Origin: a virus
Reading direction: 5' to 3' (one strand)
DNA length: 64,000 nucleotides
Virus record (IMG/VR): IMGVR_UViG_3300022602_000001
Shown here piece after piece: positions 4,575 to 6,475 of this stretch. Under the pieces are notes generated by a model. It saw only the letters and a list, made by a program, of their open reading frames with translations, was not told the DNA's origin and made no database searches. The first letter of the stretch is position 1, and the number at the start of each line of letters is the position of its first letter. A program made the translations under genes and the position numbers.

Positions 4575-4787
4575 ATGAAACACGAATGCACGTTCAACAA
4601 GCTCTACACTGTAGCGAGAGAGTTGCTCAATGATCAACTCTTTGCGCAGCTGGCCATGAAGATGGAAATCAAGGACGAACTGTGTCTTCTCAGTCTTAGT
4701 GGCCATCTGGTTGTGACAGTCAATAATAATATCCTGTCGGCGGTGAACAGCCAACTCAAAGAAAAATTGGAAAAATATGAGGCATAA
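4575..4787 (+). CDS. M[KR]H-family array member 1
   Basis: MKHECTFNKL..LNDQL..QL, 70 aa. Confidence 0.75.
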   Translation: MKHECTFNKLYTVARELLNDQLFAQLAMKMEIKDELCLLSLSGHLVVTVNNNILSAVNSQLKEKLEKYEA

Positions 4788-4983
4788 TAATTTGCGCGCA
4801 CTGATGCAAGATGAGTTGCGAATGACGCTCGACGACCAGCTCCGCAGACAGCTCAACAACCAGCTCCACATCCACTTGCGGAACGGGTGGATTACTTTTG
4901 ATGATCTGCTTCATATTAGAATTCATAATAATTTGATGGAAATTATTAGCGACCAATTGGTGTCAAAATTAAGAGAACTATGA
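4777..4983 (+). CDS. M[KR]H-family array member 2
   Basis: MRHNNL..LDDQLRRQLNNQL; retains cagctc DNA repeats. Confidence 0.75.
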   Translation: MRHNNLRALMQDELRMTLDDQLRRQLNNQLHIHLRNGWITFDDLLHIRIHNNLMEIISDQLVSKLREL

Positions 4984-5201
4984 AGCACAACGACTTGTTC
5001 AATCAGTTGGACAGAGAATTTTATAAACTGCTTACCAGTCCATTAAAGACTCAGCTGCTGAGCAAACAATTGAGCGGACAGCTGTTTGGCCTTTGTTGGA
5101 GTTTAATTTTTTCAAGATTTGATTCTAGAATTAGTATAAATGTGCGGTACCGCTTGAATGTTCGGCTAAAAATAAAAATGACAAAAATGAGCAATCTATG
5201 A
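4980..5201 (+). CDS. M[KR]H-family array member 3
   Basis: MKHNDLFNQLD, ATGA overlap. Confidence 0.75.
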   Translation: MKHNDLFNQLDREFYKLLTSPLKTQLLSKQLSGQLFGLCWSLIFSRFDSRISINVRYRLNVRLKIKMTKMSNL

Positions 5202-5413
5202 AGCATATCAGCATATACAGCAAGCTGGACGAAATGCTCTATCGGCGAATTAGCTTTCAGCTCAACAACCAGCTCTACAAGAGGATTAATTTAGAGAGCG
5301 CGCTGCAAAAGAGATTTTGCCAGAGTCTTAGTATACAGTTTTGCGCTGGAATTTCTCAAAATTTGGAGCGTCCCATGAAAAAACAGACGAGAATAAAAAT
5401 GCACAATCTATGA
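5198..5413 (+). CDS. M[KR]H-family array member 4
   Basis: MKHISIYSKLD..QLNNQLY, ATGA overlap. Confidence 0.75.
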   Translation: MKHISIYSKLDEMLYRRISFQLNNQLYKRINLESALQKRFCQSLSIQFCAGISQNLERPMKKQTRIKMHNL

Positions 5414-5631
5414 GGCACGAATCAATCGAGGAAGAACTGTACGAGGGTTTAAATTTGTATTTTGACGCGGTGCACGGCCTTGAAAAAGAATTAGAGAAAG
5501 AACTATACGGACCTGTTGGCGCGCTGGAGTCGGCCGTATTCTACCCTCTGGCGAATATGCTGTATACGGAGCTGTACTACAAAGTGGACTGTTGCGACGC
5601 TGGCGAACGTTTGACAAAATTTATAAAATGA
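5410..5631 (+). CDS. M[KR]H-family array member 5 (acidic)
   Basis: MRHESIEEELY; start reassigned to the ATGA overlap at 5410. Confidence 0.7.
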   Translation: MRHESIEEELYEGLNLYFDAVHGLEKELEKELYGPVGALESAVFYPLANMLYTELYYKVDCCDAGERLTKFIK

Positions 5632-5834
5632 TGAGGCACAATACAACTTTGACCTTCTTTCAAGAGAAGATGCACAAACTCATTGGTGACGCCACCAACG
5701 ACCAATTATTTTTTAATATAGATCTTCGTTTGTTTAGACAACTTGATAATTTGTATCATACTGGATACATTAGAATTGTTAGTAATATGATAAAAAGACT
5801 GGACGAACAGCTAAAAATTAAAATAAATCGATGA
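5628..5834 (+). CDS. M[KR]H-family array member 6
   Basis: MMRHNTT..NDQL..RQLD; start reassigned. Confidence 0.7.
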   Translation: MMRHNTTLTFFQEKMHKLIGDATNDQLFFNIDLRLFRQLDNLYHTGYIRIVSNMIKRLDEQLKIKINR

Positions 5835-6052
5835 TGCACTCAGACCTCTACCATAAGTTAAATCGCCTACTTTTCGATCGATTGGATGGGGCGCTCTATA
5901 CAGAGCTCAAATTTGGGATTTTGAACGGAGAACTTCATATTTCAATAATCAACGTGCTGAGAGATCCTCTTGAAAACATGCTCTACTGGCAGTTGGACAG
6001 ACGTCTTCTTGATTTGCAGACAGAAAAACAGCTAAAAAATGAAGCACAATGA
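5831..6052 (+). CDS. M[KR]H-family array member 7
   Basis: MMHSDLYHKLN..WQLD. Confidence 0.7.
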   Translation: MMHSDLYHKLNRLLFDRLDGALYTELKFGILNGELHISIINVLRDPLENMLYWQLDRRLLDLQTEKQLKNEAQ

Positions 6053-6245
6053 CTTGTTCTTAAAGTTGGATCATGAACTTTACAACCAACTTTTTATACC
6101 ACTAAATGATCAGCTGCGCAGCCATTTGGACAATCAACTGTTTCGTCAGTGGTGGAGTGACTTTGTACAGTTTAAATTTGGCATTGCTATAAACTTGAAT
6201 AATACCATGAGAATCAGGACAAGGGAAAAAATGTACAATATATGA
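6039..6245 (+). CDS. M[KR]H-family array member 8
   Basis: MKHNDLFLKLD..NQL..LNDQL..LDNQL. Confidence 0.75.
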   Translation: MKHNDLFLKLDHELYNQLFIPLNDQLRSHLDNQLFRQWWSDFVQFKFGIAINLNNTMRIRTREKMYNI

Positions 6246-6475
6246 AGCACAAAAATATACTGATGCAACTTGATAGAAAGCTAGAATCTTCTGTTGTGGC
6301 TAAAAAACTTGATGAACCTCTAATTCCAAAGTTTATGGACAATTGTCTGTACAAAGAGATACAGCTGCAGCTGATTTCACAACTGTTCAACAGGGTTGAA
6401 AACAGGTTGGTTGCTCCCTTGCATAGAAATTTGATAACCCATGTACCCTACCGCGGGCTGACAGTCCGTCTATAA
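6242..6475 (+). CDS. M[KR]H-family array member 9
   Basis: MKHKNILMQLD..QLQLISQL. Confidence 0.75.
   Translation: MKHKNILMQLDRKLESSVVAKKLDEPLIPKFMDNCLYKEIQLQLISQLFNRVENRLVAPLHRNLITHVPYRGLTVRL

What the first reader, a model, noticed from the sequence alone, without database searches (positions are those of the whole stretch)
4575..6475. Array of nine coupled, hyper-diverged ~70-aa M[KR]H paralogues
Seen: nine consecutive ORFs of 68-77 aa, all starting M-[KRM]-H, all overlapping (mostly ATGA), with a Leu-every-fourth-residue (LxxQ/LxxxL) pattern and otherwise very different sequence and charge. Four more members lie at 68, 2205, 3375 and 3578. The 2205 gene is a pure 12-bp repeat, and CAGCTC relics persist in members 2 and 4. 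This suggests birth from a tandem repeat followed by diversification. Inference: an early-expressed repertoire of small helical binders or decoys (anti-defence or host takeover) with an invariant N-terminal His as a metal ligand or targeting signal. I know of no description of this array.
Basis: partly seen in the sequence, partly recalled or inferred. Interest (0 to 1): 0.78.

Follow-up and report, generated by a model that had tools for sequence, protein, structure and literature searches.

The report
Detached helical-repeat mini-gene array beside DUF6745
A distant T4-like phage carries nine back-to-back, fast-changing genes for ~70-residue single-helix proteins; they are free-standing, diverged copies of a four-residue repeat that related phages keep inside one unstudied protein (DUF6745), and a structure model places one of them back onto this phage's repeat-less copy of that protein.

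Summary
Nine ORFs of 68-77 aa tile 4575-6475 completely. Six junctions are ATGA overlaps, and the other two overlap by 11 and 14 nt. All nine start M-[K/R/M]-H. They remain mutually recognisable with the first 12 residues removed, and Leu recurs every fourth residue (z 8.8). Four more copies lie at 68, 2205, 3375 and 3578; two of these are 20-23-aa stubs.

The family is not an orphan. Its profile hits the central (x-S-Q-L)n tract of DUF6745 (PF20530) phage proteins. Gene 216-1439 is a DUF6745-family protein that lacks that tract. In seven loci, repeat-less DUF6745 genes have free mini-genes nearby (4 of 4) and tract-bearing ones do not (0 of 3).

Member 8 folds as one long helix. A complex model docks it on the DUF6745-like protein (score 0.87, best control 0.00).

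Related strains show in-frame chimeras, loss and gain of members, and dN/dS of 0.3-0.7.

The function is unknown. A tunable counter-defence or host-interaction module is inferred by analogy with Tweety gp54, which is not homologous.

No paper in the held library mentions DUF6745. This scan has noted the same split layout in at least seven other phage genomes.

The parts
4575..4787 (+). m1, 70 aa, MKH start; first gene of the coupled array
   Evidence: Homologues in other strains: P0003 at about 90% and P0005 at about 70%; a further m1-like ORF lies in L009.
4777..4983 (+). m2, 68 aa, MRH start; keeps 4 copies of the 12-bp unit (4827-4874)
   Evidence: Absent from strain L003 and fused in frame to m8 in strain L002.
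4980..5201 (+). m3, 73 aa, MKH start; ATGA overlap with m2
   Evidence: 46% identical to m8; dN/dS 0.61 against L003
5198..5413 (+). m4, 71 aa, MKH start; ATGA overlap; 12-bp relic at 5258-5280
5410..5631 (+). m5, 73 aa, MRH start; the most diverged and most acidic member (net charge -8)
   Evidence: (the weakest leave-one-out score, but above all shuffles)
5628..5834 (+). m6, 68 aa from the ATGA-coupled ATG (MMRH), or 67 aa from 5631 (MRH)
5831..6052 (+). m7, 73 aa, MMH start; ATGA overlap
6039..6245 (+). m8, 68 aa, MKH start; 14-nt overlap with m7; the member that was folded and docked
   Evidence: single helix over residues 2-67, pLDDT 94; ipSAE 0.87/0.40/0.87 against the protein of 216-1439, best control 0.00.
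6242..6475 (+). m9, 77 aa, MKH start; last member of the array
   Evidence: dN/dS 0.31 against L002
2205..2420 (+). s2205, 71 aa; MKH cap, 14.8 copies of the 12-bp unit ((x-x-Q-L)n), and a KKSPK tail; promoter-like cassettes on both sides
68..130 (+). s68, a 20-aa stub of the pure-repeat type, ended by a TAG inside the repeat
   Evidence: The close strain L009 has three full-length copies (63, 71 and 69 aa) at this place.
1..28 (+). tail of a further pure-repeat unit that starts upstream of the window; same sequence as 118-145
3375..3581 (+). s3375, 68 aa, MRH start; diverged solitary member
3578..3649 (+). s3578, 23-aa stub (MKH cap, 2 repeat units, EKSPK tail); ATGA-coupled to s3375
216..1439 (+). 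DUF6745-family protein (407 aa) without the central tetrad tract; proposed core onto which the mini-proteins dock
   Evidence: 461 homologues, many carrying PF20530; homologues at 50-60% identity carry (xSQL)n where this protein has a 44-aa non-repeat linker; hhalign probability 95.7%, E 8.7e-9; nearest Atlas folds are DUF6745 clusters, TM 0.62; pLDDT 90.8.
1869..2099 (+). 76-aa protein conserved beside the DUF6745 gene in six related loci; possible third component
   Evidence: 52-97% identity; directly downstream in five of six loci
21..64 (+). promoter-like cassette (AAAATAAATTTTTTA..N11..AATTGCCTAATTTTACTC) in front of s68. Further copies are at 144-187, 1809-1852, 2158-2201, 2413-2456, 2943-2986 and 3642-3685.
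   Evidence: 7 matches against 0.12 expected.. All copies are on the + strand and within the first 4 kb of the window (weaker matches at 1439 and 7890).
4532..4574 (+). diverged copy of the promoter-like cassette directly in front of m1, at the same distance from the ATG as at s68 and s2205; the only such element for the whole array

Best explanation
The nine ORFs are real genes. They form one translationally coupled operon behind a single early-type promoter-like element. Each encodes a ~70-residue single alpha-helix built on a four-residue period (x-x-Q-L, with Leu every fourth residue).

The ORFs are free-standing, strongly diverged copies of the tetrapeptide tract that most members of the DUF6745 phage protein family carry between their N-terminal and C-terminal domains. 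This phage's DUF6745-family protein (216-1439) has lost that tract.

The mini-proteins most likely dock on it in trans. The conserved ends (the M-K/R-H...L-D start and the C-terminal cap) and the Leu stripe would face the core, and the variable residues would face outward. One core would then be offered 9-13 alternative helical inserts.

Unequal recombination between the conserved gene junctions and between repeat relics adds, removes and fuses members.

What the complex does is unknown. By analogy with repeat-tuned phage counter-defence proteins, the most likely role is an early host-interaction or counter-defence function whose specificity is set by the insert.

Status of each step:
- Shown: the ORFs, the paralogy, the periodicity, the homology of 216-1439, the fused/split complementarity and the strain variation.
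- Predicted by models: the helix and the docking.
- Inferred: early expression and function.
For: Coding:
- ORFs tile 100% of the region, against a maximum of 49% in 2000 resamples.
- Frames are kept in strains 81-91% identical in DNA, with in-frame indels and in-frame chimeras.
- dN/dS is 0.68, 0.61 and 0.31.

Family: leave-one-out profiles recognise every member without its first 12 residues.

Link to the tract:
- The profile of the 11 full-length members finds 232 proteins at E <= 0.001 in 1.84 billion. Among the 150 listed, all but the phage's own mini-proteins and a few other short ones are roughly 130-1700-aa proteins (mostly 300-550 aa), matched 1-8 times each; those inspected carry a central (xSQL)n tract, and 9 of 10 scanned show a DUF6745 match, 7 above Pfam's cut-off.
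- P0028, P0019 and P0023 are hit both by the mini-gene profile and as 46-53% identical homologues of 216-1439. Their tract lies exactly where the window protein has a 44-aa linker.

Membership of 216-1439.

Complementarity:
- Free mini-genes lie beside the repeat-less genes in the window, L009/L010, L007 and L011/L012, the last with about 38.
- None lies within 10 kb of the tract-bearing genes in L013, L015 and L016.

Docking: ipSAE 0.87, 0.40 and 0.87 in three runs, best of 3 controls 0.00. That mark was reached by 58 of 80 solved complexes and 2 of 110 mismatched pairs. The runs agree in at least 36% of contacts, and the partner's pLDDT is at least 61. The m8 contacts recur every four residues (21-22, 25-26... 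45-46) and include both ends.

Length is constrained to 63-77 aa among full-length members here and in L009.

Early class: the same promoter-like cassette precedes seven other small + strand genes, and a diverged copy precedes m1. The fused homologue in a Sphingobacterium prophage sits in the early/replication region.
Against: - Only one member (m8) was docked. One of the three runs scored 0.40. The tool's calibration holds only roughly with my own alignments. The model may simply place a helix where fused relatives have their tract.
- The array lies 3.1 kb from the DUF6745-like gene, with unrelated genes in between.
- Pfam's own DUF6745 model does not hit 216-1439 at E <= 0.1.
- Profile hits to the tract are partly driven by low-complexity composition, because s2205 is in the profile.
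- Against the closest strain, changes in m1-m3 are 23 nonsynonymous to 4 synonymous (pN/pS 1.5). This fits positive selection but also relaxed constraint.
- No expression data could be obtained.
- The DUF6745-like fold has no solved relative, so no activity can be assigned.
- The conserved start also aligns with the A-rich leader of the promoter cassette. Part of its conservation may therefore be at the RNA or DNA level.
Confidence: 0.55

Rival explanations
1. The mini-proteins are independent early effectors: small amphipathic helices that bind host proteins or defence systems, or form coiled coils with each other. They do not need the DUF6745-like protein. The similarity to the DUF6745 tract reflects only common descent of the repeat.
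For: - The early-type promoter cassette.
- Extreme spread of charge and sequence.
- Fast evolution and pN/pS of 1 or more between close strains.
- A single long helix cannot be stable alone and needs some partner.
- The array is 3 kb away from the DUF6745-like gene.
Against: - The fused/split complementarity in seven loci is not expected if the two were functionally unlinked.
- The docking model passes with controls at 0.00.
- The conserved caps at both ends lie in the modelled interface.
Confidence: 0.22
2. The ORFs are evolutionary debris. Promoter-plus-repeat cassettes act as recombination hot spots, like the PeSL cassettes of T4-type phages. The ORFs are open only because they derive from a stop-free 12-bp repeat. 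The array is a decaying pile of such units with no protein function.
For: - Cassette copies sit at the borders of indels between strains: window 1530-1853 and 2162-3902 are absent from L009/L010.
- Two copies are 20-23-aa stubs.
- pN/pS is 1.5 against the closest strain.
- All three + frames and some - frames are open in the pure repeat.
Against: - Array members have diverged far from the repeat, yet all nine stay open, tile the region and keep coupled starts.
- The other two frames carry many stops; stop counts over the whole region are 29-43 in every frame.
- Frames survive 9-19% DNA divergence with in-frame indels only.
- dN/dS is 0.3-0.7 at larger divergence.
- There are no promoter copies inside the array.
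- Similar arrays of 8 to about 38 members are kept in phages whose DUF6745-like gene is only 51-81% identical.
Confidence: 0.1
3. The conserved N-terminus is a capsid-targeting sequence like that of the T4 internal proteins. On this reading the array is a set of proteins packaged in the head, injected with the DNA, and trimmed by the prohead protease.
For: - A shared ~10-residue N-terminal leader on otherwise diverse small proteins in a T4-like phage.
- T4 IPI is a small injected anti-restriction protein (my own knowledge, not checked here).
Against: - A Leu/Ile-x-Glu cleavage motif within the first 20 residues is present in only 2 of 9 members (m4, m5; read).
- The genes carry the cassette shared with the other small + strand genes of this region, not a late TATAAATA-type site.
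- The fused form of the tract occurs in a prophage early region.
- The cap differs completely in related phages.
Confidence: 0.03
4. The feature works as DNA: an array of AGCT-containing 12-bp units that serves as binding sites (iterons or decoys). Translation would be incidental.
For: The pure repeat at 2224-2401 has 14.8 regular 12-bp units, each with CAGCT(C/G).
Against: - Within 4575-6475 the DNA repeat has decayed to 2-4 relic units, while the protein-level period of four and the ORFs persist.
- The same peptide repeat sits inside hundreds of proteins.
Confidence: 0.03

Closest known systems
Central tetrapeptide tract of DUF6745 (Pfam PF20530, phrog_31813) proteins of phages, prophages and bacteria. 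Examples are P0028, P0019, P0023 and P0178, the last in a Sphingobacterium sp. ML3W prophage.
   Same: - The same four-residue period with Gln-Leu fixed and the position after Leu variable.
- The same 12-bp coding unit in s2205.
- The window's 216-1439 protein is 46-53% identical to these proteins on both sides of the tract.
- The mini-gene profile hits their tracts.
   Different: - Here the tract is absent from the DUF6745-family gene and is encoded as 9 + 4 separate small genes with their own start and end caps.
- The array copies have diverged until only relics of the repeat remain.
- The family has no known function, and no paper in the held library mentions it.
Mycobacteriophage Tweety gp54, with Che8 gp57 and PMC gp51: a tetrapeptide-repeat protein whose repeat number tunes counter-defence against Phrann gp29/gp30 (PMC2884959, PMC9262239).
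   Same: - A phage accessory protein with unique N- and C-terminal parts around in-frame 12-bp/tetrapeptide repeats.
- Repeat number differs between related phages.
- Variation is confined to particular repeat positions.
   Different: - There is no detectable homology: no Pfam hit for gp54 and hhalign probability 0.1% against the family of 216-1439.
- Its repeat is Ala-Ala-x-x, not x-x-Gln-Leu.
- Its repeat stays inside one gene.
- The counter-defence role is shown for gp54 only. For the present system it is an analogy.
PeSL (promoter-early stem-loop) cassettes of T4-type phages, which mediate modular shuffling in hyperplastic regions (PMC2839356, PMC4122927).
   Same: - A ~44-bp conserved promoter-like element is repeated in front of unrelated small genes of a T4-like phage.
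- Copies lie at the borders of insertions and deletions between close strains.
   Different: - No stem-loop or terminator half was found.
- The sequence is unrelated to sigma-70 early promoters.
- Here several cassettes carry a repeat mini-gene between two promoter copies.
- Inside the array, recombination uses gene junctions and repeat relics, not promoters.
T4 internal proteins (IPI, IPII, IPIII) with a shared capsid-targeting leader.
   Same: Small, diverse, fast-evolving proteins of a T4-like phage that share only a short N-terminal leader.
   Different: - There is no consistent protease site.
- The genes sit in an early-type context.
- The leader varies between lineages.
- The genes are linked to DUF6745 (see the rivals).

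Membership tests
DUF6745 (PF20530), for the protein of 216-1439 | Match to the Pfam model above its gathering score | tested here: not met
   There is no PF20530 hit at E <= 0.1. The 49% identical homologue P0167 scores 24.2 bits against a cut-off of 27. This clade lies at the edge of the Pfam model.
DUF6745 (PF20530), for the protein of 216-1439 | Profile-level homology of the C-terminal core to PF20530-positive proteins | tested here: met
   hhalign of the repeat-less window protein alone against an alignment of PF20530-positive proteins: probability 95.7%, E 8.7e-9, residues 169-345. With its homologues: probability 100%, E 3.9e-57, partly from the shared repeats. Many homologues at E of 1e-76 or lower carry a precomputed PF20530 hit.
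DUF6745 (PF20530), for the protein of 216-1439 | Same fold as family members | tested here: met
   The nearest Atlas models are two DUF6745 clusters: TM 0.62 and 0.61 by query, with 300 and 294 aligned residues. The model has pLDDT 90.8.
DUF6745 proteins with a central tetrad tract | (x-S/N-Q-L)n tract between the N-terminal domain and the core | tested here: not met
   The window protein has a 44-aa non-repeat linker (residues about 78-121) where P0028, P0019, P0023, P0178, P0156 and P0167 have the tract.
Detached DUF6745 tract modules, for m1-m9 and the four solitary copies | Four-residue period with Leu (Gln-Leu) and similarity to the tract | tested here: met
   Leu i+4 z = 8.8 over m1-m9. 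The profile hits tracts of DUF6745 proteins. Caution: s2205 is in the profile and the tract is of low complexity.
Detached DUF6745 tract modules, for m1-m9 and the four solitary copies | Free modules occur where the DUF6745 gene lacks the tract, and not where it has it | tested here: met
   4 of 4 repeat-less loci have free mini-genes (window, L009/L010, L007, L011/L012). 0 of 3 tract-bearing loci have any within 10 kb (L013, L015, L016). The sample is small.
Detached DUF6745 tract modules, for m1-m9 and the four solitary copies | Physical binding of module to core | not testable with these tools
   Only a model is available: ipSAE 0.87 (median of 0.87, 0.40, 0.87), best control 0.00. That mark was reached by 58 of 80 solved complexes and 2 of 110 mismatched pairs.
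Tweety gp54-type repeat-tuned counter-defence proteins | Homology to gp54 outside the repeat | tested here: not met
Tweety gp54-type repeat-tuned counter-defence proteins | In-frame tetrapeptide repeat whose number differs between related phages | tested here: met
   s2205 has 14.8 units. s68 and s3578 have 2-3 units. Strain L009 has three copies of 63-71 aa where the window has a 20-aa stub.
Tweety gp54-type repeat-tuned counter-defence proteins | Counter-defence activity | not testable with these tools
   Needs a host and a defence system.
T4 internal proteins with capsid-targeting sequence | Leu/Ile-x-Glu protease site at the end of the shared leader | tested here: not met
   The motif is present within the first 20 residues in m4 and m5 only (sequences).
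PeSL cassettes, for the promoter-like repeats | Early promoter joined to a stem-loop terminator | tested here: inconclusive
   The repeated promoter-like element is found. No associated stem-loop appeared in the simple scan. The host promoter type is unknown.

The most novel reading that the evidence does not exclude
This would be a one-core, many-inserts system. The phage has split a variable helical tract out of its DUF6745 protein and keeps a germline library of 9-13 alternative tract proteins; relatives keep up to about 38. All are made early. Each clips onto the same core through conserved end caps. A single infection would thus field a panel of complexes with different exposed surfaces, for instance against variable host defence or target proteins. 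The library would be renewed by unequal recombination between members.
Probability: 0.35. Interest if true: 0.85.

Novelty: new variant of a known kind. Interest (0 to 1): 0.66.

Why it matters
DUF6745 is a large, entirely unstudied family of phage and prophage early proteins. The only studied parallel for its hypervariable tetrapeptide tract is Tweety gp54, where repeat number retunes a counter-defence.

The split form found here gives a direct experimental handle. The tract can be supplied in trans, one variant at a time, to a repeat-less core. If the docking is real, it shows a way for a virus to diversify one protein complex without a mutagenic machine such as a DGR: it keeps many alternative subunits in a recombining gene array.

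The strain comparisons also catch that array changing. They show an in-frame chimera, the loss of one member and a new member.

Tried and rejected
- Pfam and PHROGs scans of ten family members found nothing below E 0.01.
- blastn and tblastn of the array and of m8 against 50,697 GenBank phage records gave no match.
- The cassette pattern gave one hit in IMG/VR. It lies in an unrelated sugar-modification locus and is a chance match.
With gene 6508-7719 it found nothing in viral contigs, and in metagenomes only the contig already held.
- The whole genome is not held.
- An Rfam scan of 1-9000 gave only two sub-threshold chance hits.
- The sigma-70 and terminator scan was uninformative for this phage.
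- The fold of the DUF6745-like protein has no solved relative: Foldseek best E 0.26, and VIA-align best Z 5.9 over 49 residues of a beta-meander.
- Tweety gp54 was tested as a homologue and rejected.
- The Atlas feature search for m8 gave only unnamed viral clusters at a borderline score of 0.90.
- A metal-ligand role for His3 was considered and dropped, because the cap differs between lineages and no second ligand is conserved.
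Full report
Context. The window comes from a distant T4-like myophage. It encodes a gp23-type capsid protein, a gp20-type portal with intein domains and a baseplate J protein. The best capsid match is Flavobacterium phage immuto at 53%. There is no nucleotide match in GenBank phages, and no whole genome is held. The first 13 kb holds small + strand genes.

Observation. Nine ORFs of 68-77 aa tile 4575-6475. Six junctions are ATGA overlaps. 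m1/m2 overlap by 11 nt and m7/m8 by 14 nt. All nine begin M-K-H, M-R-H or M-M-H; m6 reads MMRH from the coupled ATG. ORFs of 60 aa or more cover 100% of the region, against a mean of 7% and a maximum of 49% in 2000 resamples. The start pattern occurs 14 times on the + strand of the 64 kb, and 13 of these are the family.

Every member is recognised by a profile of the others, also after removing the first 12 residues (0 of 200 shuffles reach the real score). m3/m8 are 46% identical and m4/m8 38%. Leu recurs at i+4, i+8 and i+12 (z 8.8, 5.8, 5.0), with no heptad signal. Net charge runs from -8 to +9.

The copy at 2205 is 14.8 units of a 12-bp repeat between an MKH cap and a KKSPK tail. The copies at 68 and 3578 are 20- and 23-aa stubs, and the copy at 3375 is a diverged full-length member. 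12-bp relics persist in m2 and m4.

Surroundings. A ~44-bp element (AAAATAAATTTTTTA, 11 variable bases, AATTGCCTAATTTTACTC) occurs seven times in 1-3700, only on the + strand, in front of unrelated small genes. The core has 7 matches against 0.12 expected. At s68 and s2205 the ATG follows within 3 nt. A diverged copy sits at the same distance in front of m1, and none lies inside the array. I read this as one promoter for a nine-gene coupled operon. This is an inference: the host promoter type is unknown and the sigma-70 scan is uninformative.

What the family is related to. Pfam and PHROGs give nothing for the members. A profile of the 11 full-length members, searched against 1.84 billion representatives, finds 232 proteins. 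Among the 150 listed, all but the phage's own mini-proteins and a few other short ones are roughly 130-1700-aa proteins (mostly 300-550 aa), matched one to eight times each. Those inspected consist of an N-terminal domain, a central (x-S-Q-L)n tract and a DUF6745 (PF20530) core.

Gene 216-1439, next to s68, belongs to this family. It has 461 homologues, many carrying PF20530. The repeat-less protein alone aligns to PF20530-positive proteins with probability 95.7% and E 8.7e-9. Its predicted fold (pLDDT 90.8) is nearest to two DUF6745 clusters (TM 0.62). Pfam's own model does not reach it, so it sits at the edge of the family.

Homologues 48-61% identical on both sides (P0156, P0167, P0028, P0019, P0178) carry the tract exactly where the window protein has a 44-aa non-repeat linker; P0023 (42% in that alignment) does so too. 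Three of them (P0028, P0019, P0023) had also been hit by the mini-gene profile.

Fused or split. I fetched seven loci.
- Repeat-less DUF6745-like genes are surrounded by free mini-genes.
  - The window.
  - L009/L010: 98% identical protein, with three pure-repeat MKH genes of 63, 71 and 69 aa in front of it.
  - L007: 81% identical, with at least 8 mini-genes starting MYKTID.
  - L011/L012: 51% identical, a 271-kb contig with about 38 overlapping mini-genes that have ENLNKKI and QMKDGKFK caps.
- Tract-bearing genes have no free mini-gene within 10 kb. These are L013 in the early region of a Sphingobacterium prophage, L015 and L016.
- A 76-aa protein (window 1869-2099) is conserved beside the DUF6745 gene in all six foreign loci.

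Structure and docking. m8 is predicted as one helix over residues 2-67 (pLDDT 94). A helix of this length is not stable alone.

The complex model of 216-1436 with m8 scores 0.87, 0.40 and 0.87 in three runs. The best of 3 controls scores 0.00. That mark was reached by 58 of 80 solved complexes and by 2 of 110 mismatched pairs. The runs agree in at least 36% of contacts, and the partner's pLDDT is at least 61. The m8 contacts recur every four residues along the helix and include both ends. On the core they include residues flanking the linker (64-75 and 114-131) and the DUF6745 sheet (172-224).

The model supports binding but does not show it, and it may echo the intramolecular packing of fused relatives. 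Only one member was tested.

Evolution in strains.
- L001 is 97.8% identical. All its differences lie in 4310-5097 and none in the 1.3 kb after that, which indicates a mosaic. In m1-m3 there are 23 nonsynonymous and 4 synonymous changes.
- At larger divergence, dN/dS is 0.68 (m1), 0.61 (m3) and 0.31 (m9), with in-frame indels only.
- L002 joins the head of m2 to the tail of m8 in frame, at a D-D/N-Q-L repeat relic. This removes six members. L002 also has a new MKH member after m9.
- L003 lacks m2 and couples m1 directly to m3.
- In L009/L010, two blocks of the window (1530-1853 and 2162-3902) are absent, with cassette copies at the borders.

The array is thus coding, under weak purifying to diversifying selection, and remodelled by unequal recombination.

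Function. The DUF6745-like fold has no solved relative, and no paper in the held library mentions the family.

The nearest studied design is Tweety gp54, whose tetrapeptide-repeat number tunes counter-defence against Phrann gp29/gp30 (PMC2884959, PMC9262239). gp54 is not homologous, so this is an analogy only.

The best reading is detached tract modules that dock on a repeat-less core, giving a panel of complexes for an early host-interaction or counter-defence role (0.55). The rivals are:
- independent helical effectors (0.22);
- recombination debris (0.10);
- capsid-targeted internal proteins (0.03; the protease motif is present in only 2 of 9 members);
- a DNA-level repeat (0.03).

Earlier notes of this scan. 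I found the DUF6745 link before opening the notes. The notes then showed that the same split layout had been recorded in at least seven other phage genomes, and that docking had been modelled there. They gave me the Tweety lead, which I tested. They are AI notes and I do not count them as evidence.

Verdict. The array is a new variant of a known kind (tetrapeptide-repeat phage accessory proteins; DUF6745). It is distinguished by the tract being split off into a diverged, coupled, recombining gene array.

Noticed in passing
window 4118-4574, especially 4298-4377: A 457-nt gap without a convincing gene lies upstream of the array. It holds a purine-only 8/16-nt repeat (GGAGAAAGAGAGAAAA x3.9) and C-runs. 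Against strain L001 it differs by several small indels (GAAA, TA, CCCC). It has no Rfam match.
   Followed up: partly
window 1869-2099: A 76-aa protein is conserved (52-97% identity) beside the DUF6745-family gene in six related loci, directly downstream in five of them. It is probably a fixed partner of that protein. In the window an extra gene (1512-1760) separates the two.
   Followed up: partly
window 1530-1853 and 2162-3902 against L009/L010: These two blocks are absent from a strain whose DUF6745-like gene is 94% identical in DNA. Promoter-like cassettes lie at the borders, as with PeSL-mediated shuffling in T4-type phages.
   Followed up: partly
L002 514-654: In this strain a further MKH member (MKHKNITRKLQ...) follows m9, where the window has the unrelated gene 6508-7719. 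The family is therefore larger in the population than in this genome.
   Followed up: no
window 55-79, 2192-2216 against 2447-2471, 3676-3700: The first codons of the mini-genes (ATGAAGCACAAA) align with the A-rich leader (TAATCAAAAACAA) that follows the same promoter-like cassette in front of other genes. Part of the conservation of the M-K-H start may therefore be at the RNA or DNA level.
   Followed up: no
window 51907-55557: The T4-type portal gene (gp20) is 1216 aa long and carries intein splicing and HINT domains.
   Followed up: no
window 34549-37704: A single 1051-aa ORF joins a calcineurin-like phosphoesterase (Mre11/SbcD-like) to an SMC/Rad50/SbcC-like ATPase. The two are usually separate genes (gp47 and gp46 in T4).
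   Followed up: no
Atlas hit to the model of 216-1439: One of the two nearest fold clusters is cyanobacterial DUF6745 fused to LRR repeats. Scan notes report LRR cassettes in this phage at 39800-45372. A link was not examined.
   Followed up: no
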